Part shown: piece by piece, positions 10,562 through 56,027 of the stretch | Position numbering within the stretch: position 1 is the first letter of the stretch | Layout: each line of letters begins with the position of its first letter | Origin: an uncultured virus (IMG/VR IMGVR_UViG_3300030294_000020) | Lineage: Duplodnaviria; Heunggongvirae; Uroviricota; Caudoviricetes | IMG/VR virus record: IMGVR_UViG_3300030294_000020 | Reading direction: 5' to 3' (one strand) | DNA: 64,000 nt | Translations under genes and position numbers: made by a program | Notes under the pieces: model-generated | Seen by the model: the letters and a program-made list of their open reading frames with translations, nothing else | The model's database searches: none | Told to the model about the DNA's origin: nothing

Positions 10562-13504
10562 TTATTGTAGTGCTTTTACTTGACTTAATGGTATGCCTAA
10601 GGCATCTGCTATGTCTCTCTGAGTGTTACCTGTTGCTAACATAGATCTAACACGTGCTTCTCTAGCAGGAGTTAGCCCTGATGCAGTGTTAGTTCTAGGC
10701 ATTGCTAATTGCTTTACTATGTCAGGCTGTGAGTTATCAAGGATCTGCCTTAGTATGTGATCACTTATAGCACCTGCTTGTATTGCTTCCCATTGTTTAT
10801 CACTTATCTCTATTGCTTGCTTCTTAGATCCTATCCTAAGACGGGCACTCATTAGGGCTTGTCCTCTAATTTTTTTGAGGTCTGCTTTATCCATATCAGG
10901 ATTGTCTGCTTTCTTAGCATCAACTGTTGCATTGGCTAATAGCATGGCCTGTCTTTCAAGGGGGGCATTCTTAAGGGCGGTGTTAAGACTACTAAGTAGG
11001 GAGGATCTTTCTTCAGCATACACTTTCTTGGCCGAAGGTGAATAAACTAGGGAGGGGGTTGAAATGAGTGCTTTTCTTGCATCATTACCAAGAGCCTTTA
11101 ATTTATTAGCGTGAGTTGCATACACTGTCTCTATTGGTTGACCTGATGATAATGCAAATGCATCTTCTTCTTCATACATCTTAGTAGACACTATAGTTTT
11201 AGGGGTAGGGGTAGTTGATAAGGCATAGACTTTCTTACCTGCTTTATACTTTACTAACTCAGCAGGAGTCATGTCTGCTACATCCTTCTCTACTTTAACC
11301 GTTGTACTACCAGGTTTATAAACTTTCTTACCTGCATTATACTTTACTAACTCAGCAGGTGTCATCTCAGATACAGTCTTTTCTACTCTAACTTTAGTAG
11401 TTAAAGGTTTAAAGTAAGACTCACCACTATACTCCCATACTTTCTTTCCTGCATTGTGATCCGCTAACTCTTTAGGAGTCATGTTAAGTATCTTCTTACC
11501 TTTATTATGATCTGCTAATTCAGAAGGAGTCATGTTCTTTGTAGCTTTATATACAGTCTTTTCTTTTCTAACACCTACTCTAGTATCCGAAGATGCTTTA
11601 GAGATAATAGTTTGAGCACCACCTGTAGCTGTTTGATATCGTTTCTTAAGTGCACCTATTTGGTTATCTCTATAAGATTTCTTATAATCAAGATTATGTT
11701 TCTCAGCATCTATTACAACCATTGAATGCTTAACTGCTCTACAAACTTCATCTGGTGGAGCTCCAGCAATTGTCATGTCTGTAATTAGATTAGAAATTTT
11801 ACCCATTTCCATACCTTTAGTATGAGATGTCATTTTAGGCATTCCATCGTATGGCGGATAACTTTCTTTAGCATCAAACCCTACTAATCCTTTTAGGGCG
11901 GGGGTTGATTTAATAGTATTACCATGAGCATTAGGAATTACAATTACATTATCACCATCAAAATCTGCCCCTGATAATCTCTCAGCAACTTTAGGACTAA
12001 TACCAACTGCGTCTTTTGTTGGCCCAAGAAGTTTCTTAGCTAATGGATGATTATTATTTACTGTTAATACTGGTATTTCAAATGTACCACCATGTGGATG
12101 TCTAACTAAAGCTACTGATTCTCCATTACGAAAATTAGGAGCATATATCTCTGTATCTTTCATAGTAGTAACTGGCAATATTACTTGGGCTGCTTGACGA
12201 GGCATTGCTGCTGCTTTTAAATGAACAGCATCTGAATCGCAACCATCTGCAAATTCTTCTAATAACTTTCTCTTTACTGTAGGATTAGTCAAAGACATAA
12301 TAGTATCATACTCTTCTTTTTTAGCATCATAGGTTAAACCTAATTGTTGTTTGGCTAAAGCTAATGGTTGTTTAGATAGAAATTGAGATGATAAATTTTT
12401 ATTCCATTTATCCCAATCTCCTTCATCATTAACTTTATTAATTGGAGATAATTGATCTTTTCCTTTACTATCTATGTAATGACGTTGTCCAGTAAAATCT
12501 TTAATCTTTGCTCCAAATGGATTATCTGGGTCAATAGTAGGATCATCTTTACTAATAGTTTTTAAAGGTTTTAATACTTTTAATTTAGGAGTATCCTTTC
12601 CTTTATTAGTATTAAACATTATGTCAGTTCCTGCTGGAAGATCATCAGAATACATAGCCATACCCTTTAAGTAATGTGATCCATCAACCATAATACGAAC
12701 TTGTGCATATGAAGTATTACCAAGAGATATTTCTTCCATACCCCTTCTTAATTCAATAACTCCATCTTTATCTGCACCACCATCTTCTTTATATCTGATG
12801 GCAACTCTCTTTGATGATACACTCTTAGGATACTCTATACCATATGCAGTTTTACCATCTTCTTCAACATGATGATCTATTACCATTTTAATCTCTGATT
12901 GTCTTTTATAGAGATCAGCATAAGGTATTCCAGGAGGGGATAATACAAGAATTGTAGTTTTCTTATTACCACCAATTCCTAATTGAAGAACATTTATATT
13001 ACGAGTTTCATAACCTTCTTCTTGTAATTTACTAACTGCTGTCATCATTTTAGTTCGGTTAACACCCAAGTATCTTTCTTGACCAATTCCTATATCAATA
13101 AGATTATTTTTTCCAACAGCATCTCTTAAGGCATCAGCAACTACTGCTGTTTTCTGACTTCTCTCATAAATATCTTTATTAAGTAATGAACGAACAGATG
13201 ATTCATTTGGCATACCAAGTTGCTTAGCAATTGCTGTATCACTAAGACCTTTACTTTTTAATTCAGTAGCTAATGAAAAGTTTGCTTTCTTTTCTTCCAT
13301 ACGAGCTAAGGATATCTTTTTTCTAAGTTCACTAGTTGTTTCTAATCCAGTTCCTTTAGCTATATCAATTGGTGAAAGACCTTTCTTTTTAAGATCGCTC
13401 ACCATATTAAGAAAAGTTTTATTTCTTTGATCTGGATCATCTCCAGAACCTCTTGGATATCTTCCTGAATAGCTAGTACCAATATGATATAATTCTTCAC
13501 TCAC
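10562..13504 (-). CDS. Single-subunit two-barrel DNA-dependent RNA polymerase with terminal HTH domains
   Basis: LSGADFDGD catalytic motif preceded by VRHPHGG; HTH-like segments at both ends. Confidence 0.8.
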   Translation of the reverse strand: MSEELYHIGTSYSGRYPRGSGDDPDQRNKTFLNMVSDLKKKGLSPIDIAKGTGLETTSELRKKISLARMEEKKANFSLATELKSKGLSDTAIAKQLGMPNESSVRSLLNKDIYERSQKTAVVADALRDAVGKNNLIDIGIGQERYLGVNRTKMMTAVSKLQEEGYETRNINVLQLGIGGNKKTTILVLSPPGIPYADLYKRQSEIKMVIDHHVEEDGKTAYGIEYPKSVSSKRVAIRYKEDGGADKDGVIELRRGMEEISLGNTSYAQVRIMVDGSHYLKGMAMYSDDLPAGTDIMFNTNKGKDTPKLKVLKPLKTISKDDPTIDPDNPFGAKIKDFTGQRHYIDSKGKDQLSPINKVNDEGDWDKWNKNLSSQFLSKQPLALAKQQLGLTYDAKKEEYDTIMSLTNPTVKRKLLEEFADGCDSDAVHLKAAAMPRQAAQVILPVTTMKDTEIYAPNFRNGESVALVRHPHGGTFEIPVLTVNNNHPLAKKLLGPTKDAVGISPKVAERLSGADFDGDNVIVIPNAHGNTIKSTPALKGLVGFDAKESYPPYDGMPKMTSHTKGMEMGKISNLITDMTIAGAPPDEVCRAVKHSMVVIDAEKHNLDYKKSYRDNQIGALKKRYQTATGGAQTIISKASSDTRVGVRKEKTVYKATKNMTPSELADHNKGKKILNMTPKELADHNAGKKVWEYSGESYFKPLTTKVRVEKTVSEMTPAELVKYNAGKKVYKPGSTTVKVEKDVADMTPAELVKYKAGKKVYALSTTPTPKTIVSTKMYEEEDAFALSSGQPIETVYATHANKLKALGNDARKALISTPSLVYSPSAKKVYAEERSSLLSSLNTALKNAPLERQAMLLANATVDAKKADNPDMDKADLKKIRGQALMSARLRIGSKKQAIEISDKQWEAIQAGAISDHILRQILDNSQPDIVKQLAMPRTNTASGLTPAREARVRSMLATGNTQRDIADALGIPLSQVKALQ
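11229..11533 (-). repeat. Four intragenic repeats encoding MTPxELxxxxxGKK in RNAP
   Basis: ~44-nt units at about 11229, 11322, 11439, 11490. Confidence 0.85.
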
Positions 13505-18239: not shown

Positions 18240-21200
18240 TCAGAATGGAATATCATCTGGGTTATCTGGTTCATCTAACTGAATAGGAAAGTTTTCTTTA
18301 ACATAAAGATCCCCTCTTACATATGGATCATTTGATCTGAACCATTCAAAATCACAATATCCAGATATGGCATCAATTGCTTCATCACACATTTTTGCAT
18401 AATATGATTGGTCAATATCCATTTCTCTATGCAATGAGTGAACCATTTCTGATTCTAGCCATCTATAACCCTTGCTTCCAGTTGCTGCATAGTATTTACC
18501 ATCTTTTTCGCGCATTAGAAGCCCACCACCGCATCCAGGTCTTATTGGGCAGAATGCTCCAACCTTACCTATAAAGTGATAGTCATGACCTTGTGAGATT
18601 AGATGTTGTATCTCATCTGCTCTATTGCATTTTCTTTTCATATTATCATCATGTGGAAGATTATCATTTGTTATATCTTTCCATAACTTATCATGTTCTT
18701 TTTCATAGCCAGTCACATCTGGAAGATCTTCATTCATATCTAAATATAAAGAACTAAGTACTGACTTTGTCTCACACATATCTTCAAATTTAATAGGCTC
18801 TTTGGTGAATAATGTCTTAAAGACATATGGCTGTTGAAATTGAGTACCAGTTGCAGTCCATTCATTTGCATGCTGTCCACCTTTAGTTCTTATGCCATAT
18901 TTATCATATTTTGCAATGTATACAGCATTGTTAACTAAACATAATTTATCATAGGTTGCTTCATGCTCAAAGTCATAACCATATTTCTTACCAAAAGCTG
19001 TAACGAAGTCTATTATTTCTTGAGTAGCTTCTGGGATCTTAATCGAGTCTGTCTTAATATGAGCTACAACAAAGCCTTTTTCTTTAACGGCATAATATAA
19101 ATCTATCATAAATAATGCTCCACGCTTAGCTACAATATTATCTACATTACGAGGATCTCTAAATGGATTTTCAAACCTAGCTGAGGTTAATCCATAAATG
19201 GAATTAATAACGGTCTTCAATGCATCTGACAAATCTCCTGCCTTATCCTTATCAGTTAAGAATTTAGCAAGTTTACCTTCTAGCATTTTCTTAGCTGCCT
19301 CATAGTCACCATGTTTAATTGCTAGTCTAGCATTCTTAATATCACTAAATATTCTAGTGTATTTTGTTCCGAATAAATTAAGTTGCTCTACACTTGTAGG
19401 ATGCATAGATGCAATATCAAGTAATGCTACAAGACCATAGGCCCCTATTTCAGAAAGGACAATACCACCTTCACCAACTTCTATACCTCTATATGTACTC
19501 TTACCCCCTTCAAATTTATATCCTGGGAACATAATACTAAGATCAGTATATACAAACTCACTTTGTGGATGTTTATTATTACCAAACATAATCTTTGTTG
19601 AATGCATATTTGTAGTATCATTAACTGTCAATCCACTAAGTTCAGCAAGTATCTGTCTAGCAGTCCAATCTGAAACTAAATAATCAAAAGTAGCTTCTGT
19701 AGCAGTAACATCATTACAACAATAGTCTGCGACTTTAACCCATAAGGACTCATCAACATCTTTGTCCCAAGGTAATCCTAACTCTTGATGATGAATACCT
19801 AATTGAATTTCAAACTTCTTAAGACTCTGTTTATTTCCTGCTGAAGCAAAGTCATATACATCAGTATAAGAAACACCATAAGCTTCTCCAAACAATCCAT
19901 TACGACTGTTATTAATAATCTTTTGAGATAATTCATATAGTTGTCTATTTGTATATCCTATTAATCTAGCATATAGAATATGGTTATCATACCTTCTACA
20001 ATTAAATCCAACAAGTTTCATCTTCATTAGATGCTCAACATCAGAAGAACTAGGATTAATCATTTCAACACAAGGTTTACCTTTTACTTTCCATACAATT
20101 ACAAATAGATTAGGAAATACTTCAACATCGAAGAATACTAGTTCATCATGTCTATCATGCATATCATCCAGCATCTCATCAACCATACTATTAACATCGG
20201 TGTTACCTTCTACTTCAGATTTAAATTTCATCTTGCTAACTATCTTAATACAAAGTAATGCTTGATGACTACTATTATTACCAAATGCTAATATCTGGGG
20301 TCTCATATCTGTTAAGTCATAACTTACTCCAGAATCATAAGCATCCTCCAATATTTTATTTATAAAATCGATACTTGACTTTGTTCCAGGATGTATCTCC
20401 TTATTAAGATTTCTCTTTACTAATGTCCTCAAAGCTTTCTCATTTTTAACGCCTTCAAAATTAATCATTTTTTCTCCTTTCAATGGCAACCCCGAATTTA
20501 TAGTTGCTATGGGTATATTATTACATTTTGTAAGCCTACGCCTAAGTGAACTATCCCCTACAAATACTTTTATTTCAATATCATTGTCATATATTCTACT
20601 AAGCCTAGATGCATCACCATCATATATATAATGCAAATGAACTCCGTTCCCACCTTTACTTACTTCAGCATAGGTAGAAGGCCAAAGACTAGCTGCTTCT
20701 ATATTCTTTTCATATGATTTATTACCTAACTCATCTTTAATATCAAAGTCTATAACTATATGATTTTCTGGTAATGCAACATAATGAATTTTACTTGTAT
20801 CTAAGTCTGCTAGAACACTACTAACTTCTTTCCATTTCTGCATTGGTATTTCTCTTTCACCACCTGCATATTGAGCAGGCTCCATAGCACAAGCAATTTC
20901 AAATAATGATTCTTCATAGTCAAGAGTCATGGTAGGAATTTTAGGTTCCATATTTTCAGTAGACCCTTCATTTTCTTCCTCTTCTTTGGCTTTTGTAAAC
21001 AATTCTGATTTAAATACTGAATAATAGCTTCTTATTTGTTTACCATCAACTCTTGTAACCTCATCAAATCTTTCAAAGTAATTTCTTAACTCTCCTCTAA
21101 ACTTATACATTGGTAATTTAAACTCAATCAGACTTTCATCGCAATATTGCTTATACATCTCAAATGCAACTTTTAGAGTAGTACTATCTTCTCTCTTGAA

Positions 21201-22277
21201 TACTAAATAACTATCTTCTATAAAATTAAAGAATAAGTCAGTGTCAAACATCATATCTAGTGGGGTATAATGAGCATAATAATTTTTTCCCATTTTTTTA
21301 TATGTCTCTAAACAATGAAAGGCAATAGCTCCTAATTCAAAATCTATTTTATTTACTAATATCTGATATCTAGAAGGAGTTAAATGTTCACCTGTAGGTT
21401 TAACATCAATAAGTCTTCTTATAATACCGGATTTAGCATCGGTTATCTTTACTGGTTTATTAGTACCCATAAATAAGAAGGCATTTGTTTTTGCAGTATA
21501 CGATGATTTAAATTTTTCATTCATAGTCATCTCTTCATGAGATATAATTGAATTAAGTTTTGAATTGTCTTCTATCTTGCTTAAATCACCATCATGTTGA
21601 ATTGCTATTAACGGATTACTTTTAAAAACATCAGTAGCAAAAGTATTATTATTTGAAGTTAATGCTTTTGCTTCAAAAGTTGTATAATATCCGTCAAATA
21701 AGTTTTGTATAATATTAAGTATAGTTGACTTACCAGATCCTTGTGTTCCATATAGAACAATAAATTTTTGAATTGATTTAGAGTCACCACAAATAATTGC
21801 ACCTATGGCCCATTCTAATTTAGCTCTTTCTTCTTTAGAATATAAAGTATCAAACAATTCATCATATGCTTCTATAGAACCTTCTTCAATTGCATAAGAT
21901 ACTCTTTTACTTACATAATCCTCTCTCTTAACTTTAGTATTTGTGAATGTTATTGTATTATCCAATTCTCTATAATAGTCTGGTTGAATTTTTATATAGT
22001 TTTTAAACTCTTGCCATTTACCAGATGTAAAATCAATAACTGATTTAACGGAGGTAGGACTTGTCTCTTTGCTACTACAATCATATAATTCTTTATCCAC
22101 CAAACGAGCCACGTCAAATTCATTAGTAGACCACATTTTAATATTATCGTCCCAGATAGCATAAAAGCTTTTACCTCTGACCATTAAGTCTTTGCATTCT
22201 GTAACTTTAAAATTTGGGTAAAATTCTGTTGTCATTGTTGTTTTATTGTATTTATTTTTGATCTCGACGAAATCCAT
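18240..22277 (-). CDS. SF3 helicase - AEP primase - 3'-5' exonuclease - family B-like DNA polymerase fusion
   Basis: GTQGSGKST Walker A; DFD and SKGGNGVHLHY primase motifs; FFDVE exo I; LDIASMHP, KTVINSIYG, KTDS polymerase motifs. Confidence 0.85.
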   Translation of the reverse strand: MDFVEIKNKYNKTTMTTEFYPNFKVTECKDLMVRGKSFYAIWDDNIKMWSTNEFDVARLVDKELYDCSSKETSPTSVKSVIDFTSGKWQEFKNYIKIQPDYYRELDNTITFTNTKVKREDYVSKRVSYAIEEGSIEAYDELFDTLYSKEERAKLEWAIGAIICGDSKSIQKFIVLYGTQGSGKSTILNIIQNLFDGYYTTFEAKALTSNNNTFATDVFKSNPLIAIQHDGDLSKIEDNSKLNSIISHEEMTMNEKFKSSYTAKTNAFLFMGTNKPVKITDAKSGIIRRLIDVKPTGEHLTPSRYQILVNKIDFELGAIAFHCLETYKKMGKNYYAHYTPLDMMFDTDLFFNFIEDSYLVFKREDSTTLKVAFEMYKQYCDESLIEFKLPMYKFRGELRNYFERFDEVTRVDGKQIRSYYSVFKSELFTKAKEEEENEGSTENMEPKIPTMTLDYEESLFEIACAMEPAQYAGGEREIPMQKWKEVSSVLADLDTSKIHYVALPENHIVIDFDIKDELGNKSYEKNIEAASLWPSTYAEVSKGGNGVHLHYIYDGDASRLSRIYDNDIEIKVFVGDSSLRRRLTKCNNIPIATINSGLPLKGEKMINFEGVKNEKALRTLVKRNLNKEIHPGTKSSIDFINKILEDAYDSGVSYDLTDMRPQILAFGNNSSHQALLCIKIVSKMKFKSEVEGNTDVNSMVDEMLDDMHDRHDELVFFDVEVFPNLFVIVWKVKGKPCVEMINPSSSDVEHLMKMKLVGFNCRRYDNHILYARLIGYTNRQLYELSQKIINNSRNGLFGEAYGVSYTDVYDFASAGNKQSLKKFEIQLGIHHQELGLPWDKDVDESLWVKVADYCCNDVTATEATFDYLVSDWTARQILAELSGLTVNDTTNMHSTKIMFGNNKHPQSEFVYTDLSIMFPGYKFEGGKSTYRGIEVGEGGIVLSEIGAYGLVALLDIASMHPTSVEQLNLFGTKYTRIFSDIKNARLAIKHGDYEAAKKMLEGKLAKFLTDKDKAGDLSDALKTVINSIYGLTSARFENPFRDPRNVDNIVAKRGALFMIDLYYAVKEKGFVVAHIKTDSIKIPEATQEIIDFVTAFGKKYGYDFEHEATYDKLCLVNNAVYIAKYDKYGIRTKGGQHANEWTATGTQFQQPYVFKTLFTKEPIKFEDMCETKSVLSSLYLDMNEDLPDVTGYEKEHDKLWKDITNDNLPHDDNMKRKCNRADEIQHLISQGHDYHFIGKVGAFCPIRPGCGGGLLMREKDGKYYAATGSKGYRWLESEMVHSLHREMDIDQSYYAKMCDEAIDAISGYCDFEWFRSNDPYVRGDLYVKENFPIQLDEPDNPDDIPF

Positions 22278-29425: not shown

Positions 29426-29982
29426 ACTATCACTCCTCTAAATTCTATTCTATAAGTAGTACTCATGTCTCCAATATTTGGTTTATTCATATTTATAATC
29501 TCTTCTATAAGAACTTTAATATCAAGACCATTAATAGGCATTGGCTCTTTATCAGTATATAATCGATTGATATAATTATAGTTCCCTCTTGCTATATCCT
29601 CAGATTTACCTTGATATAAAATAGTATAAATCGTTTCTCCTTTTTTTAGGGTATTTGCTATTGTTAAGAACTTTTCAAATGTTATTGGACGATCATCTTC
29701 AATCTTCTCACCATAATTATCTGGTCCATCTACAACATCATGTACCTGTTGAGCAACTTTAGCCGGAACAACAATACCATAATCCATATCAAAGAAATAT
29801 AGTACATGAATATTCTTACCATCTATAGTAACCTCTATTAGTTGCATTATAGCATATTCTTTAGGTATAATATCTGCTCTAATCCAACATATAAATTTAT
29901 CCTTTTTAAACACCATAATATCTCTAATATATGGATTTGTAATAACCTTTCCCACTATTTCATTTGTTATATTGTCTCTCAA
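29422..29982 (-). CDS. Hypothetical protein
   Basis: ORF track; EFRGVIV end. Confidence 0.55.
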   Translation of the reverse strand: MRDNITNEIVGKVITNPYIRDIMVFKKDKFICWIRADIIPKEYAIMQLIEVTIDGKNIHVLYFFDMDYGIVVPAKVAQQVHDVVDGPDNYGEKIEDDRPITFEKFLTIANTLKKGETIYTILYQGKSEDIARGNYNYINRLYTDKEPMPINGLDIKVLIEEIINMNKPNIGDMSTTYRIEFRGVIV

Positions 29983-30283
29983 TTTAATAACCCCTTTTCT
30001 TTCTTTTTTGGATAGAATGCTTTAAAACACTCTCCTATACTAATACATTGCATTAATGTGCATTTAGGTTTTTCTGCAGTACAAGTTAAGCATTGTTCAG
30101 ATAATAAGGCTATATATTCTTTCATTTCATTACTTCCTTCTTAGGATAATATTCATTAAAACATTTAGGACATAGGTAATCATATATACTACCATCAAGA
30201 CAACAACTTTTTATTGTTACTTTCTTGCCACATAGTCTACATTTAAATTTATCTATATAAATTGGCATAACAACTACTCCTTC

Positions 30284-31277: not shown

Positions 31278-31661
31278 TCACAAATAATCTTCATTATATT
31301 TTCTCAAGTCTGGGAATATCTCTTTAATACCTTTAAGATGGCTCATCAAATATTCTCTATTAAAAGCATACCAAATAGCTCCGACTGGATATTTAGTTTC
31401 ATATAAGCCATAAGTATAAGGTCTATCTGGATATTCTTCAAGTAATTCTTTAGAGCTACTAATGTAAACCATTTCTTTCTTAGACTCCAACTCAACCAAT
31501 ATCTCTATAACAGAACCTTCATAATAATGAGCAACGGTCTCAAGATTATTAGAGAACCATATTAGTTCTCCACATTCCTTATTAAGTAAATCTTTACCTT
31601 TTTGTACATTTGTTCCTATCATTAGTTTAACTATATGATTTGGTGTTTTTCTTTTTTTCAT
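31278..31661 (-). CDS. Hypothetical protein
   Basis: ORF with RBS. Confidence 0.55.
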   Translation of the reverse strand: MKKRKTPNHIVKLMIGTNVQKGKDLLNKECGELIWFSNNLETVAHYYEGSVIEILVELESKKEMVYISSSKELLEEYPDRPYTYGLYETKYPVGAIWYAFNREYLMSHLKGIKEIFPDLRKYNEDYL

Positions 31662-45669: not shown

Positions 45670-48449
45670 CTATTGTATATCTGAATCTTTTATACTCTCA
45701 GCACATTTCTTAAATATATTAAGTATTTGTAATTGATCTAGCTCCTGGTTCATATAAGAGTCTCTAAAAGCAGAGGTATACCAACTAATTCCAAAACCAG
45801 TAGGTTTGTATATGAACTTAAGTAATAGTGCTTCTTTTTTATCTGCACCAAAATAATGTAGTCTCATTGTGAATATCTCATTATCAAACTCATCAGATTC
45901 TAGAACTAGCCAAGATAATTTTTGCCATTCCTCTGATTTAACTAACTCTCTATCTGGGAAAGCAAATTCACCTCTTGAATTTCCAAAGAATGTATTGCCT
46001 AATTCCATATTAATCTCCTCCTAGTAATTTATTTTTTGTCTATTTGTTCTAATTGAAATACTTGATAATTATTATCTTCAAATATCATGCCTACTGTATT
46101 ATTTATTCCCTGATATTCCTTGAATTTATTAGCAGCCTCATCAAAAGTATTAAAATTATAATCTGGATCATCTGCCATTTCATTAGTAATAGATCTCGAT
46201 AAGATTAAATCAGGCGTAAATTCATATTTGTCTATTATTCTTTTAGTTTTTAATGCTTCTGTAAGCCCATAGACAACTAGTCCGCCTATAACTACACAAG
46301 CACCATTTATAAATTTGCTCTTATTCGCTACAACAAAATTCTTGATATCTTTTATTTTCATTACTAATCTCCTCCTACCAAATTTCAGTTAGTATTCCTG
46401 GTAAAGTTAATTTACTTGTATTAGCAAGTCTATAACTCTTATTAAATTGATGCTTCAGATTATTTATCGCTTTTTTTCTAGATTTAGCATGAGTCTCCGC
46501 AAACCAGTTTTCTTTAATACATTTACCAAAAGCATTAAGGACAGAACCTTTATACCTGTATTCTTTATATCCTATCCATGTTCTAGAAGGTTTTACTTTA
46601 GTCATTTCTATAGATTCCATATCTACAATTCTCATAATGTTTCCTCTGATCTCTTATTACAGCCTATACCAGCACTGAACTTATCAAGTATCCTTTGCTT
46701 TCTTTCTTTGCTTATTTTCTCCCCATCAAAAGAATCATCAGCAATCTTTAATATTTTCTCATCTAATTCTTCACATCTTTTTAAAAATCCATCATCCAAC
46801 TTTGCAGCATACCTCAGTGCTAATTCTCCAGCTAAGTCAACTGCTACGTTTGCAATAGTATTTTTAGACATCATTATATACCATCCCCCGTTTATTTTAT
46901 TTATTTGTTAATCATTATTCTCTCTTCTATTTCTTTTTTAAACTCTTCTAAAAGTATACTCCTTGCCTTAAAAACACTGTTACTTTGAGCCCATAGATCC
47001 CAAGAACCATATTTATGTTCTATATTTGACAACTCACCTATAACACTGTATACTTTTTCAAATATTTCTTTATCTGCCTTGGCTAGATTTTCTACATATT
47101 CATCAAATTTATCCATACTCAAACTCCTCCTATTTTACTAGTTTTAAATATGCATCTGGAACTATAAGAGCTCTTAATGCTCTATTTTCCATTTCTATTC
47201 TATATTTCTGTAAAGAATCAAACTCAAAATTCTCATTAATAGCCATTTGAGTAGCAATTCTATCAATATGTAATACGTTACCTTGTTTATAATATCTTTT
47301 ATTTACCATTTTTAATCTCTCCTTTTTCTTTATATATTTCAAAAAGTTCATTAGCCATTATTTCTTGATATTCTAATAATGGTTCTGGTGAAAAGGCATT
47401 ACAAAAATTAATAAAATCTTTGTTTGATGTACTGTTTTGACTCTCTCCTTTTTTCCGTACTAAGAAGTTCCCGTATATTTCATGCATAAGTTGTGCTTGA
47501 TATTCGGCCAATGGTGGAGCTTTATAGTCAATAGTAGGAACAACAGAAGGAACAACAGAAGTCATACCAATACCATCATATGATAAATTAGCCTCAACCC
47601 CATCAGAATATGGATGCCATAATCTTGTAGGAGCATGGTAATGTCTACCATCATGAGTAAGTACCTTTGTTTGCTCTTCACAAGAGGTGGGGGCATAAAA
47701 ACTTAATACCGTTCCTATAACCCCTGTTTCTAAGCATATTACTTTATCACCTTTTTTAATCAATCTATCTTTCATGATAGTCCTCACAACTTTTAATAAA
47801 ATATGGGTCTGGTGATGATGTTTCATCTGGATATATACAATGACTAGTTACATCTTTCGGATGTATACCATATGTGCCAAGTCTCTCCATATCAACTATA
47901 ATAGTACCCTCTATTCCTGGTGATAATATAAGATTTTTCTCATTAAAGTCAGGTAATTTAATTAACCCATCATATATATCTTGACTAGAAGTAACTACAA
48001 TTTGCTTAGGTTTTAATGCCTCAATAAGATTATCCATATCGTCCTTAGTAAAGGCTTTATTCTGTATTTCTGATACTGGATCGTATGTGCCTTTTAATGA
48101 GTCTAAAATACTTTTTGATATCTCATCTTGCATTGATCTTTTTATTGCTTCTGTAAGCATATTTATATTAATACAACTCCTTATCTATAAGTTTTATTGA
48201 TTCTTCTTGAGATAATCCACTTTCCACTAGACATTCTATAGCTTCATCTCTTGTATGATTCAATTTTATAGCAAAACAAGCATCATCCATAGATTTTGTA
48301 TTAGATTCAATTGGGCTAAAATGTTTTCCATATTCTAACCCCATCCATAACTCATAGCCTTTTTTATCCATAAATTTCGTTACAAATGAATCTACTATAC
48401 TTGAAAAACTAGCATATTTACCTTTATATTCTACTGTACGTCTTCCCAT
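45670..48449 (-). other. Run of about 9 small hypothetical genes
   Basis: ORFs 45670, 46029, 46375, 46632, 46901, 47130, 47299, 47765, 48168 with RBSs. Confidence 0.55.
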
Positions 48450-49404: not shown

Positions 49405-51965
49405 TTATATTAGAGTACCTTCTACTATTGGATAAATACAGTGTAATAATGGTGCTCTCATATTTTTATCTTGGTATTTCTTAGACCAATCAGTCATTAG
49501 AATTTTAAGTGCATCTTCTTCATTATAACTTATAACACTAATATATTTAGTAGAATAATAATCGATGTCTGCACAAAATTGATATATTTGTAACTTTGGT
49601 TTAACCGCTTTTACTTTTCGTATTTTATTTTCTACCCTTAAAGCATAGTGACTATAGCAAGGGTTCTCTCTTTTTGTAAGTTTATCTCGATCTTTAATGA
49701 TTACAAACTCACATTCTAAGGGTTTTATTACTATATTTGCTCTATAATTAAATCTAAGTATGTCAATAACTGTTCCTCGTTTTCCAAAATTTCTACTCTG
49801 CTTAGATGATACCACAACAATATCACCTATTCTAAGATCTCTAACTTCTTCTTTATTCATAATTATTTGCTCCTTTCAAAAGCATATTTTTAAAAAGTTG
49901 TTGTTTTAATAGGATTTTCTCCTGAATAGTCAAATGATTCAGTTAATATCCAAGGATTCTCTAAGCTTTCTTTAAGTTCTTTAAGTTCTTTATGCTCTTT
50001 AATTAATAAGAAAGTTAAAGATACTATAGCGATGCTTAAAATAGTAATAGAGGCATTTTTAATTTTATCTTTATTTATTTTCATTGTTATTTGCTCCTTT
50101 CAAAAGCATAATTTACCAGTTAAATCTTTTATCTCTTGGTGCATTAAGCCATACTGTTAGTTCTTTAGTTCTCATTTCACTTAATAATTTCTTAAAAAAT
50201 CTACATTCAGGTCTAGGATGATTGTCATATGTCAGTAGCATAATTGTATCACATAGTAAATTAGATTCAAAGAAATGCTCTTTATTAGTCTCTACATGCT
50301 CTTCTGTTTTATTTTCCATAATATTTGTTCCTTCCTAATTATCTGCATAAGCCATAGCCATTTTTTTACAATCATCTAATGTCTTAGCTTTAAATCCAAC
50401 AGGTATCCCGTACTTAGCTTTTATCTTATAGCATTTTTTCATGACTGTACCAATACCAAAACTATGTAATCGCCCATCAGCTCTCCAGCCGTGCCAAGTT
50501 TGGTTCTCTTCGCAAAAACCTATACAATATTCATTCTCTGTAAGTTTTATACTTCCTGGTTTAATACCTCTGTTAGTAATATTGTTGTTGTTCATAATAC
50601 TTGCTCCTTTCAAAAGCATATTATATATAGAGACAAATAAAAGGTAAGTCTCGCAACTACTTTCATATAGATAATTGGATTTTCACCAACTTCCTAAATA
50701 TCATCATGTGATATCCTATGGAACCTTAAGGTTGTCTATATTTACCTTTCATTATAATACATGTTATTTACGCGAGATTATACTACTTATCAACTTTAAA
50801 TGATAAAGCATGATGGGTAAATCCATATAGATATACTCCAGTATACAAGACTGGTGTGGCTATACCAACCATAAACTCACAATTATAAGGTTCTAAATAT
50901 ATATCACCTATACCTGAAGTTGTTACTCCTATAGCTATAGTTATAGCTCTAACTATACCAATTTTACCATAGTTTTTATTCCTTGGACCAGATACTTCAA
51001 CTATATCTCCAATTTTCAAAGTTTTAACTTCAACCTTATCCATAATTATTTGCTCCTTTCAAAAGCATAATTTATTCTAGACTTTTACCATACTCATTTA
51101 CTGATCCATCTTCATTGTGTGTCATGTAATAGAACTCTTTATCATCATACATATCGATAGTATCTGGCACTTCTCCTGTATATGGTGTTGGTTTAGTGAT
51201 AACTATTTCTCGTACAAATAAACCTACATATAATCCAATTATTAGTAATCCTCCAAGTGCAAGTGCTTTTTTGATTTTAGTCTTTTTATTCATTATTAAT
51301 TTCTCCTTTCAAAATATATCATCCTCGTCTAATATAGAAATGCCATTAAATTGTATACCTGATGCCTTTTCATTAAGATCCTTTATGAATCTTTTAAGGG
51401 TCACAAGTTCTTTAGGTGTATAATTATTTGCAGGCCACGTAATTGGTTTATTACCTAACATGGGGGTCATATAAAATTCTTTTATTGGTTCATCTATTGA
51501 TGGTATTAATTGAAATGTTTGATGTGCAAATGCATAAAATCCATGTTTATTTTTACGTCGAGTTTTAGGATTATAAAATGTAAACTCACCATCTAAAGGT
51601 TGTAAATATACATTAGACTCACCCCACATATCTCTTAGTATTTCTGTAACCATTCCTCTTTTTCCTTGATTACCACCATGAGTTGTTATAACAACAATAT
51701 TACCTACTTTAAGATTTTTAAGTTCTTTTTGATTCATATTTAACTTTCTCCTTTCAATTCGTGATTATTTATTTTCTAAATCATATATAAATTTTAAATG
51801 TCTCCAACTATACCTTCTAATTTTATCAGGGTCAATGGTTACAACAACTTTACCAGCGACAAATCCCCGAACTACTGCACAGCAACCTTTGTCTTTGGAA
51901 TTAGCATTTCCTTCAATAAGCACAACATCTTTTATTTTTAAATTACTGTATTCTTCTGGAGTCAT
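49405..51965 (-). other. Gene run including four KOW/SH3-like paralogs (49405-49860, 50783-51043, 51309-51737, 51765-51965) and small TM proteins
   Basis: Shared LKIGDIVxV..GKxGxV motif; TTGAAAGGAG RBSs. Confidence 0.6.
50632..50751 (-). ncRNA. Structured non-coding cassette RNA (~115 nt, multibranch)
   Basis: Promoter 50748-50774; AAAGGTAA/TTACCTTT closing stem; ATATCA/TGATAT and GTTGG-TGAAAAT-CCAAT hairpins. Confidence 0.6.
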
Positions 51966-55708: not shown

Positions 55709-55765
55709 ATTTATTCCTCCTAAATTAAATTTATTTCTATTATAGTATAAGTTTCTTATGCGAAA

Positions 55766-55975
55766 GACAAAAATTAAAAGCTGTGTTTTGGTGACGACCC
55801 ATCGAAAATCGTCCATTAAGCTAATATCTATAGCCACCTGTAGGTAAGGGAAATGCCCCTACGCCTTCGTGTCTTACATAACACATTCTTTTAATTAAGG
55901 TATCTCATTATACCACTCCTTTTACAGAGGGAGATAGTGCTCTCGCCTATCCGATTAAATTGCTTCTTACCTTCA
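55766..55975 (-). ncRNA. ~210-nt highly structured non-coding cassette RNA
   Basis: Promoter 55972-55998; GC-richer than surroundings; at least seven hairpins; TTTTTGTC tail. Confidence 0.65.
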
Positions 55976-56027
55976 TTATATGATATGTATTCTACGCGTA
56001 AGACAAAGAGAAAGCCTAAGCTTTAAC

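What the first reader, a model, noticed from the sequence alone, without database searches (positions are those of the whole stretch)
55766..55975. ~210-nt GC-enriched multi-hairpin RNA occupying a cassette
Seen (minus strand): GATAG-GCGAGAGCA-CTATC, CTCC/GGAG and GGTAT/ATACC hairpins, then a domain closed by AATTAAAAG/CTTTTAATT containing GTGTT/GACAC, GTAGG/CCTAC, GCTA/TAGC and GACGATTT/GGGTCGTC stems. No RBS-led ORF. Inference: an unrecognised structured ncRNA (scaffold, sponge or ribozyme).
Basis: partly seen in the sequence, partly recalled or inferred. Interest (0 to 1): 0.72.

Follow-up and report, generated by a model that had tools for sequence, protein, structure and literature searches.

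The report
New structured RNA family in phages
This stretch is a gene for a compactly folded small RNA rather than a protein, and it belongs to a previously undescribed RNA family shared by a widespread group of phages, some of them lab-grown, whose job is still unknown.

Summary
Window 55975-55766 (minus strand) is an ORF-less cassette between two copies of the phage's repeated promoter. It is GC-enriched (39.5% against 29.4%) and folds well.

The real unit is the 3' two-thirds. It has a 94-nt core (55881-55788) closed by a long-range stem (55896-55888 with 55780-55772) that is followed by a U-run.

A covariance model built from the window and two metagenomic homologs found the core in 12 of 80 related IMG/VR phage records. 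It also found it in Arthrobacter phage Qui. blastn found it in 17 distinct Gordonia cluster DJ phages, always in unannotated gaps.

Across 16 distinct sequences, 96.6% of cells pair and 23 of 28 pairs show double changes (0 of 500 shuffles reach this). The pairs include a pseudoknot. No Rfam 15 family and no tRNA model matches.

In every member the RNA starts at the conserved phage promoter, and its two ends pair just before a U-run. It is therefore a self-contained RNA gene.

The window's first ~80 nt (three hairpins) are not conserved and not significant alone.

Function is not shown. I favour a trans-acting, partner-binding small RNA. A ligand- or factor-dependent terminator (riboswitch-like leader) is the main rival.

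The parts
56011..56023 (-). Terminator hairpin motif of the preceding small gene (56282-56028)
   Evidence: One of the repeated AAGCTTAGGCTTT copies. There are 67 matches on both strands against 3.9 expected and 35 minus-strand copies.
55975..55998 (-). Repeated phage promoter in front of the RNA (CGCG..ACA..TATAAT, with TATAAT at 55980-55975)
   Evidence: It aligns with the other cassette promoters. A promoter-like regex hits 46 times on the minus strand and once on the plus strand. The same motif precedes every homolog.
55897..55974 (-). Window-specific 5' extension with three hairpins (GAUAG/CUAUC, CUCC/GGAG, GGUAU/AUACC)
   Evidence: The hairpins are present, but z = -1.39 and no homolog has this part. 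Whether it belongs to the mature RNA is open.
55907..55915 (-). Internal TGnTATAAT (extended -10-like box) inside the third hairpin; a possible alternative start of the RNA
   Evidence: Read from the sequence. It lacks the CGCG/ACA upstream parts of the phage promoter. Inference only.
55888..55896 (-). P1 closing stem, 5' strand (AAUUAAAAG)
   Evidence: It pairs with 55780-55772 in the MFE. A closing stem joining both ends appears in the MFE of all 16 confident members.
55880..55885 (-). P1b, 5' strand (UGUGUU), which pairs with 55787-55782
   Evidence: MFE.
55788..55881 (-). Conserved core of the RNA family (models R1 and R2)
   Evidence: R1 scores 105.9 bits and R2 90.4 bits. It is the only hit in the window.
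55839..55878 (-). P2 arm. Basal helix 55878-75 with 55842-39; conserved internal loop AGACACGAAGGC at 55874-63; distal helix 55864-57 with 55849-43; loop 55856-50
   Evidence: The basal helix is 100% paired with all 4 pairs covarying. The distal helix is 95.5% paired.
55819..55835 (-). P3 hairpin (5 bp, variable loop)
   Evidence: All 5 pairs have double changes and 94.3% of cells pair. Two strain variants fall in its loop.
55793..55813 (-). P4 hairpin with the conserved loop UUUUCGAUGGG
   Evidence: It is 100% paired and 6 of 7 pairs have double changes.
55866..55870 (-). Pseudoknot, 5' side (ACGAA of the P2 internal loop), pairing with 55806-55801 in the P4 loop
   Evidence: 92.5% of cells pair, and 3 of 5 pairs have double changes: G-C to U-A in 3 sequences, A-U to C-G in 1, A-U to G-C in 1.
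55772..55780 (-). P1 closing stem, 3' strand (CUUUUAAUU)
55763..55771 (-). U-rich tail (UUUGUCUUU), the same tail that follows the ordinary cassette terminators
55739..55762 (-). Next promoter copy, serving the 57-aa gene at 55708-55535

Best explanation
Shown: this is a self-contained RNA gene. A copy of the phage's own repeated promoter launches a transcript whose conserved 94-nt core folds into three arms, P2, P3 and P4. P2 is a long arm with a conserved asymmetric internal loop. A pseudoknot ties that loop to the P4 loop. The first nucleotides of the transcript pair with the last ones (P1) just before a U-run, so P1 closes the RNA and also stands where the ordinary cassettes have their terminator hairpin.

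Inferred: the RNA is released as an abundant, end-protected particle of about 130 nt (or about 200 nt if the window-specific 5' extension is kept). It acts in trans by binding one conserved partner, a host or phage protein or a small ligand, as a decoy, sponge or scaffold. It is an accessory function, like the small genes in the neighbouring cassettes. Where no promoter follows it, in about half of the relatives, the P1 stop also limits read-through into the next small membrane-protein gene.
For: - Own promoter and end-pairing in every confident member, 16 of 16 (flanks).
- Covariation: 96.6% of cells pair and 23 of 28 pairs have double changes, with 0 of 500 shuffles reaching this. Slid controls give 29-47%. 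The 15-sequence run gave 95.2% and 19 of 23 pairs.
- Independent single-sequence MFE folds of the window, L145 and L082 give the same arms.
- No Rfam or tRNA match.
- A promoter stands between the RNA and the next gene in 8 of 16 members, including the window. There the RNA cannot be the only control of that gene.
- The genes directly downstream are not one family.
- Patchy spread, like an accessory gene: 12 of 80 related IMG/VR records, 5 of 17 records at least 90% complete, and 1 of 17 sampled isolates.
- Unpaired nucleotides are nearly invariant between phages of high-GC actinobacteria and low-GC peat phages: AGACAC, GGU, UAAU, UUGG and ACC. This fits one common partner.
- In one relative a tRNA gene lies just upstream of the RNA's promoter.
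- Strain variants in peat metagenomes spare the fold: 2 in the P3 loop, 1 in the P2 loop, 1 G-U to G-C, and 1 in UAAU that another member also carries.
Against: - No expression data were obtained, so the ends, abundance and stability are all inferred.
- No partner is identified.
- In 7 of 16 members an RBS and start codon follow the U-run directly with no promoter. That is the layout of a cis-acting leader.
- The RNA keeps a rough place in the genome: after a Dp-1-type holin and a phrog_5818 protein, and before a tiny 'WLIW' membrane protein and a DUF6353 protein. That could mean local regulation.
- In several relatives the U-run lies 5-9 nt after P1, which is not a textbook intrinsic terminator.
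- The alignments used for counting were fitted to the model, which favours the structure.
Confidence: 0.5

Rival explanations
1. Cis-acting conditional terminator (riboswitch-like leader). The conserved pseudoknotted core is an aptamer for a universal metabolite, ion or factor. Only when the core is folded or bound are the two P1 strands brought together to form the stop signal, which sets how much transcription runs on into the small membrane-protein genes next to the lysis genes.
For: - P1 is both the closing helix and the stop hairpin in all members.
- 7 of 16 members have an RBS and ATG right after the U-run with no promoter.
- Near-invariant junction nucleotides plus a pseudoknot are typical of aptamers.
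- Loose synteny with a holin upstream and 'WLIW' and DUF6353 membrane proteins downstream.
- A second, unrelated element in the window (52083-52020) has the same plan: P1 from +1, a U-run, then RBS and gene. It gives z = -4.65.
Against: - 8 of 16 members, including the window, have a full promoter between the RNA and the next gene.
- The directly downstream genes differ.
- In the window the DUF6353 gene is 6.5 kb away.
- No alternative anti-terminator pairing was found or looked for.
- No ligand is suggested by gene context.
Confidence: 0.25
2. tRNA-shaped decoy. The four-helix layout mimics a tRNA to distract a tRNA-binding enzyme or a tRNA-cutting defence nuclease. The mimicry would be end-pairing stem, arm, 5-bp arm, 4-5-nt linker, and a hairpin whose loop is tied to the first arm.
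For: - The order of helices and the loop-to-arm pseudoknot recall the D-loop/T-loop elbow.
- The window's P4 loop reads UUCGAUG, like a T-loop.
- A tRNA gene is adjacent in one relative.
- Two T-arm-like hairpins follow the RNA in L145.
- ACC follows P4 in nearly all members.
Against: - ARAGORN and the Rfam tRNA model find nothing.
- The T-loop letters are not kept in other members: UUCGUUG, GUCAUUG, UUUAGUU.
- The P3 loop varies in length and sequence and is a tetraloop in Avazak.
- ACC is internal, not a 3' end.
Confidence: 0.1
3. Self-cleaving or processing ribozyme that trims the transcript.
For: Its size, pseudoknot and invariant junction nucleotides are ribozyme-like. Optional peripheral hairpins with GNRA loops occur in L082 and L243.
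Against: No known ribozyme family matches at E up to 10 in the window or up to 0.1 in 15 member loci. No conserved cleavage-site context is evident. A separate promoter and stop make processing unnecessary.
Confidence: 0.05
4. Polymerase-modifying leader (like the put RNAs of phage HK022), which makes the transcribing polymerase ignore the many downstream terminators.
For: It lies directly after a promoter in a region full of terminators. In actinophage members it lies near the start of the block of small genes after the holin.
Against: It ends in its own stop signal. In the window it sits mid-array with promoters before every gene. It is absent from most relatives that have the same terminator-rich layout.
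Confidence: 0.04
5. No function of its own: an ordinary terminator whose loop was expanded by junk, or a chance fold.
For: The 3' half of P1 plus the tail resembles the 3' half of the standard terminator. The 5' extension is not significant.
Against: Core sequence and pairs are conserved, with compensatory changes, across phages whose DNA polymerases are only 53-64% identical and whose hosts span two phyla.
Confidence: 0.02

Closest known systems
ORF-less promoter-to-terminator RNA cassettes of actinophages, and the abundant early non-coding RNAs of cluster A mycobacteriophages (L5, D29, StarStuff; PMC5712189, passages read)
   Same: A phage promoter drives a short, stable-looking, non-coding transcript of unknown function among early or small genes. 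The cluster A RNAs are the most abundant transcripts and have no assigned role.
   Different: No sequence or structure relation was tested or is expected. The cluster A RNA region is about 500 nt at a genome end. This family is a ~95-nt pseudoknotted core with strong covariation, and it occurs across phages of several host genera.
Riboswitch aptamers whose closing helix P1 governs an intrinsic terminator
   Same: A compact multi-helix core with a pseudoknot and near-invariant junction nucleotides. P1 joins the ends and is followed by a U-run. About half of the members sit directly before an RBS.
   Different: No Rfam riboswitch matches. There is no consistent downstream gene family. Half of the members are cut off from the next gene by a promoter. 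No ligand is known.
tRNA (L-shape held by the D-loop/T-loop contact)
   Same: An end-pairing stem, three further arms in the same order, a short linker before the last arm, and a tertiary pairing between the first arm and the last loop.
   Different: It fails tRNA models. There is no anticodon-like loop, no conserved T-loop letters and no 3' CCA end. The first arm is long with a 12-nt internal loop.
put RNAs of phage HK022
   Same: A structured RNA encoded immediately downstream of a phage promoter.
   Different: put is two simple hairpins, carries no stop signal and acts on the host polymerase. Here the fold is four-armed and ends in its own stop.

Membership tests
Any Rfam 15 family (4227 models) | Score at or above the family's gathering threshold | tested here: not met
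   There were 0 matches in the whole window at gathering thresholds. The best local match at E up to 10 is Enterococcus-1 at 17.8 bits against a threshold of 71.4, and it is displaced onto the next gene. In 15 member loci only an unrelated tRNA matched.
tRNA / tRNA-like | Cloverleaf recognised by a tRNA finder | tested here: not met
   ARAGORN found 0 genes in the window and in L145, L082, L212 and L213. The Rfam tRNA model does not hit the RNA.
tRNA / tRNA-like | Conserved T-loop letters (U-U-C-R-A) in the last hairpin loop | tested here: not met
   The window, L145 and L082 have UUCGA. Eight members have UUCGU, and others have GUCAU, UUAGU, UUAGA or UUAAA.
Riboswitch (as a kind) | Conserved structured core supported by covariation | tested here: met
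   96.6% of cells pair, 23 of 28 pairs have double changes, and 0 of 500 shuffles reach this.
Riboswitch (as a kind) | Sits in the 5' leader of genes of a consistent function | tested here: inconclusive
   7 of 16 members are directly before an RBS and 8 of 16 are separated from the next gene by a promoter. The genes are mostly small membrane proteins of several families.
Riboswitch (as a kind) | Binds a ligand that changes termination or translation | not testable with these tools
   Needs in-line probing and transcription assays.
phi29-type packaging RNA (pRNA) | Match to the pRNA model, and a phi29-like genome without a terminase small/large pair of the usual kind | tested here: not met
   No Rfam match. 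The phage has an ordinary large terminase and portal.
Known self-cleaving ribozyme classes | Match to a class model | tested here: not met
   No match at E up to 10 in the window, or up to 0.1 in the member loci. Cleavage itself was not testable.
6S RNA | Long rod with a central open-promoter-like bubble | tested here: not met
   The fold is a multi-arm junction, not a rod. No Rfam match.

The most novel reading that the evidence does not exclude
The core is a new aptamer class carried by phages. It binds a universal small molecule, either a metabolite or a nucleotide signal of the host's stress or immune response. Binding snaps P1 shut. The phage thereby either times the genes next to its lysis module according to the cell's state, or makes many copies of an RNA that soaks the molecule up. 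This would be an RNA counterpart of the protein 'sponges' that phages use against signalling-based defences.
Probability: 0.2. Interest if true: 0.88.

Novelty: new variant of a known kind. Interest (0 to 1): 0.64.

Why it matters
Structured RNAs with this much covariation and a pseudoknot almost always have a specific molecular job, and few such families are known from phages.

This one is shared by phages of Gordonia, Arthrobacter and probably Rhodococcus, and by uncultured low-GC phages from peat and other metagenomes. All of them belong to the supercluster that carries an unusual RdRP-like RNA polymerase.

It lies unannotated in the genomes of 17 cultured Gordonia phages and of Arthrobacter phage Qui. 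Its expression, its partners and the phenotype of a deletion can therefore be tested at once in harmless hosts.

It also shows that the 'one promoter, one small gene, one terminator' arrays of these phages carry RNA cargo as well as protein genes.

Tried and rejected
Searches that came up empty:
- blastn of the cassette and of the core against 50,697 phage records. The cassette gave no match and the core gave only a 22-nt chance match.
- Exact-pattern scans of IMG/VR with an RNA stretch, the terminator motif and a three-box core pattern: 0 loci each.
- The P4-box pattern in IMG/VR gave two loci, L212 and L213. They share only a P4-like hairpin used as a gene-end terminator: R1 19.2 bits, R2 13.6 bits. 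They are not counted as members.
- The same pattern in 185,579 species genomes gave 12 loci, none scoring above 9 bits.
- No whole genome is held for the window.
- No RNA holder was listed among the sequencing runs.
- The search of earlier findings by sequence found nothing for the core or for L234. For the Avazak stretch it returned one finding, e1-4039145, sharing 3 of 36 short words; that note is about the micro-gene array, not this RNA.

Hits dropped from the family:
- L233 (13.4 bits) and L240 (11.1 bits) lie inside ORFs.
- L232 (18.6 bits with R1, not recovered by R2 at E up to 0.1) is a doubtful 'mini' version.
- These were judged.

Structural ideas dropped or left open:
- The pair at columns 18-44 was replaced by 7-44, which pairs in 16 of 16 sequences against 9 of 16.
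- A GGU/ACC helix is possible, but both sides are invariant and the register shifts, so it has no support.
- The T-loop reading of P4 was dropped.
- A small peptide was dropped. The window's 21-codon frame and L145's 20-codon frame read the conserved block in different frames.

Weak observation:
- Contigs that skip the cassette (55749 to 56000 and 55753 to 56005) have sides of only 23-24 letters at repeated promoters. They may be assembly jumps, so they are not used as evidence.

Literature:
- Full-text searches for Gordonia cluster DJ, YonO plus actinobacteriophage, phage structured-RNA motifs, Arthrobacter cluster AM, ReqiPepy6 plus promoter, and actinobacteriophage non-coding RNA found no description of this RNA.
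- Passages read in 10.1101/842583, PMC7302621 and PMC13313380 describe the supercluster, its putative RNA polymerase and its central block of small membrane-protein genes. They do not mention an RNA gene.
- Supplements were not opened.

Full report
**Setting.** The window is part of a large tailed phage with all genes on the minus strand and about 30% GC.
- It encodes a large terminase, a portal, a fused primase/DNA polymerase (18240-22277) and a 980-aa RdRP-like polymerase (10562-13504).
- These place it in the known supercluster of actinophages (Gordonia DJ, Arthrobacter AM/AU, Streptomyces BI, Rhodococcus CC, Microbacterium EL) plus Lactococcus and Faecalibacterium phages (passages in 10.1101/842583 and PMC7302621).
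- All matches to named phages are below 60% protein identity.
- Near-identical DNA is held in peat-metagenome runs.
- From about 52 to 64 kb the phage consists of one-gene cassettes: a terminator hairpin (AAGCTTAGGCTTT) with the tail TTTGTCTT, a promoter (CGCG..AAAACA..TATAAT followed by purines), an RBS and a small ORF.
- The hairpin motif occurs 67 times counting both strands, against 3.9 expected, with 35 minus-strand copies.
- A promoter-like regex hits 46 times on the minus strand and once on the plus strand.

**The observation.**
- Between the promoter whose TATAAT is at 55980-55975 and the next one at 55744-55739 there is no RBS-led ORF.
- The stretch is GC-enriched: 39.5% against 29.4%, in the top 1.1% of 210-nt windows of that region.
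- It folds better than shuffles, with z = -2.20.
- Rfam finds nothing at gathering thresholds in the whole window, and nothing credible at E up to 10 locally. ARAGORN finds no tRNA.

**Homologs.**
- DNA searches of phage records and exact-pattern scans of IMG/VR failed.
- A metagenome scan with the terminator motif returned 132 stretches. The scan stopped after 25 of 64 parts.
- blastn of the cassette against those stretches found two homologs of its 3' part. L145 is 80% identical over 106 nt and L082 is 70% identical over 84 nt.
- Both lie right behind the same promoter in their own cassettes.
- Single-sequence folds of all three give the same arms.
- A covariance model of the 94-nt core (R1) was run over whole records of relatives found through the DNA polymerase. 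It hit 5 of 30 strongly.
- A second model, R2, built from 8 sequences, hit 6 of the other 50 records and 6 of the first 30. That makes 12 of 80 records, and 5 of the 17 that are at least 90% complete.
- Two hits coincide with Gordonia phages Avazak (29903-29989, between gp36 and gp37) and Secretariat (31543-31629, between gp37 and gp38). Both places are unannotated gaps.
- blastn with the Avazak copy matched 23 records. Twenty of them (17 distinct Gordonia phages) cover the RNA, all with 'annotated features: none'. The other three match only about 25 nt of promoter.
- Of 17 further isolates sampled across the supercluster, only Arthrobacter phage Qui has it: 72.2 bits at 48017-48113, in the gap before gp80.
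- R2 found no second copy in the window and none in the other metagenome loci.
- None of 15 member loci matches an Rfam family, apart from an unrelated tRNA beside one of them.

**Structure.**
- On 16 distinct sequences (alignment A6, fitted to the model) 96.6% of cells pair and 23 of 28 pairs show changes on both sides. None of 500 shuffles reaches any measure, and sliding the partners by 1-3 columns drops pairing to 29-47%. The 15-sequence version gave 95.2% and 19 of 23 pairs.
- P1 is a closing stem of variable sequence.
- P2 has a 4-bp basal helix (every pair covaries, 100% paired), a conserved 12-nt internal loop (AGACACGAA..G.) and a distal hairpin.
- GGU follows P2. Next comes P3, which is 5 bp with a variable loop, then the linker UAAU.
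- P4 has 5-7 bp and the loop UUUUCG.UGG. It is followed by A(A)CC and then the 3' strand of P1.
- A pseudoknot joins (A)CGAA of the P2 internal loop to UUCG(.U) of the P4 loop. It is supported by G-C to U-A in three sequences, A-U to C-G in one and A-U to G-C in one, with 92.5% of cells paired.
- In the window these parts lie at the coordinates given under 'parts'. Core plus P1 (55896-55769) gives z = -3.60 with 0 of 200 shuffles as good.
GTGTT extends the closing stem by pairing with AACAC, and the second hairpin is UAGGGG/CCCUUA.

**A whole transcription unit.**
- In the MFE fold of all 16 confident members, a helix joins the 5' end to the stretch just before a U-run.
- By script, its 5' strand starts within three nucleotides of the -10-like box in 10 of 16 members. 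By eye the same is true in three more, where my regex missed the box.
- Its sequence is the conserved initial transcribed sequence of the promoter: GAGAAG in actinophage members and GAAAG or GAAGG in the window's group. The 3' strand is its complement.
- The RNA therefore runs from +1 to its own stop, and P1 stands where the ordinary cassettes have their terminator hairpin.
- The same promoter motif precedes the RNA in phages of high-GC and low-GC hosts. This suggests, by inference only, that the phage's own polymerase reads it.

**The window's extra 5' part.**
- The 78 nt between the promoter and P1 (55974-55897) hold three hairpins, but they are not significant alone: z = -1.39, with 19 of 200 shuffles as good.
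- No homolog has them, although some have one optional hairpin at that place (L082, L228, L243, L244).
- The third hairpin contains TGGTATAAT (55915-55907), an extended -10-like box that could start a ~135-nt RNA.
- Alternatively, the true 5' end (GAAGGUAAGAAGC) can pair with the U-rich 3' end, as in the 210-nt MFE.
- Which form exists cannot be told without RNA data.

**Context and function.**
- In 8 of 16 members, including the window, a promoter stands between the RNA and the next gene.
- In 7 of 16 members an RBS and ATG follow the U-run directly.
- L145 has two extra hairpins with T-arm-like loops instead.
- The next genes are mostly small membrane proteins of several families.
- Within 1.5 kb there is loose synteny across the 16 loci:
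  - a Dp-1-type holin upstream in 5 loci (PF16938, E = 1e-21 for L234);
  - a phrog_5818 membrane protein upstream in 9 loci;
  - a 36-56-aa 'WLIW..VREMR' protein nearby in 7 loci, counting a weak, more distant window copy, and directly downstream in L234, L237 and L229 (with a promoter between in L229);
  - a DUF6353/phrog_2152 protein downstream in 8 loci.
- In the window the DUF6353 gene lies 6.5 kb further on (49256-48465), with a paralog at 37537-36620.
- The window's own flanking proteins match no Pfam or PHROG family.
- Strain variants in peat metagenomes leave the fold intact. Two are in the P3 loop, one is in the P2 loop, one turns G-U into G-C, and one is in UAAU and is also seen in member L243.

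**Weighing.**
- These points fit an independent, trans-acting accessory RNA that binds one conserved partner:
  - its own promoter and stop;
  - the paired ends;
  - the promoter that follows it in half of the members;
  - the lack of one downstream gene family;
  - the patchy spread;
  - the near-invariant unpaired nucleotides across host phyla.
- I give this reading about 0.5.
- These points keep a ligand- or factor-dependent terminator alive, at about 0.25:
  - the direct RBS in the other half;
  - the use of P1 as the stop;
  - the aptamer-like core;
  - the place next to lysis-associated membrane proteins.
- A tRNA-shaped decoy (0.1), a ribozyme (0.05) and a put-like polymerase modifier (0.04) are possible but have features tested and not met.
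- Chance or junk is excluded by the covariation.

**Novelty.**
- No Rfam family matches, and the full-text searches listed under 'tried and rejected' found no description.
- Earlier notes of this scan (e1-6089231, e1-5958041) describe ORF-less RNA cassettes in soil actinophages of the same supercluster. They record no sequence related to this one.
- The nearest published analogy read here is the abundant early non-coding RNAs of cluster A mycobacteriophages, whose function is also unknown (PMC5712189, passages).

Noticed in passing
window 52-64 kb, minus strand; also L226-L239, L262: The promoter motif (CGC..A..ACA..TATAAT followed by GAGAAG or GAAAGAA) keeps its form in phages of Gordonia, Arthrobacter and low-GC uncultured hosts that share the RdRP-like polymerase. 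This points to recognition by the phage's own enzyme rather than by host sigma factors.
   Followed up: partly
window 52083-52020 (minus): A second, unrelated small structured element is built on the same plan. A 12-bp stem starts at +1 of a promoter copy and encloses two hairpins, followed by a U-rich tail and then directly an RBS and the gene starting at 51963. It gives z = -4.65 with 0 of 200 shuffles as good. The family models do not detect it.
   Followed up: partly
L145 830-715 (minus): Behind the RNA of this relative lie two copies of a ~35-nt unit, each with a hairpin that has a canonical T-arm look (4-bp G/C stem, loop UUCAAUU). ARAGORN calls no tRNA there.
   Followed up: partly
L212 and L213 1491-1540 (minus): Unrelated IMG/VR phages use a hairpin with the same flank and loop letters as P4 (UUAAUGG, stem, UUUUCGAUGGG) as a gene-end terminator. 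This may be chance or a shared module.
   Followed up: partly
L228, L229, L234, L237, L239, L244 (3' of P1): In several actinophage members the U-run is separated from P1 by 5-9 nt of the form ..YUAUA... This does not fit a textbook intrinsic terminator and may be a stop signal specific to the phage polymerase.
   Followed up: no
L234 1638-1745, L237, L229, L243, L235, L228; weak copy at window ~56800-56720: A family of 36-56-aa membrane proteins ending in WLIW.FVREMR(R/K) has no Pfam match (L234 member) and only weak PHROG matches (L234 member). It recurs next to the RNA.
   Followed up: partly
window 49256-48465 and 37537-36620 (minus): There are two paralogous DUF6353 / phrog_2152 membrane proteins. 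In relatives the single copy lies within 1 kb downstream of the RNA.
   Followed up: partly
Arthrobacter phage Qui MN183282.1 48017-48113: The annotated start of gp80 (48099) overlaps the last 15 nt of the RNA core, so the start is probably called too far upstream.
   Followed up: no
window 55749-56005: Some contigs of peat runs join the two promoters and skip the RNA cassette. The sides are only 23-24 letters, so this may be an assembly jump at the repeat rather than a strain without the cassette.
   Followed up: no
L234 1385-1470: Just upstream of the RNA's promoter there is another promoter copy, followed by only a ~40-nt hairpin and a U-run. This looks like a tiny transcription unit with no cargo.
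   Followed up: no
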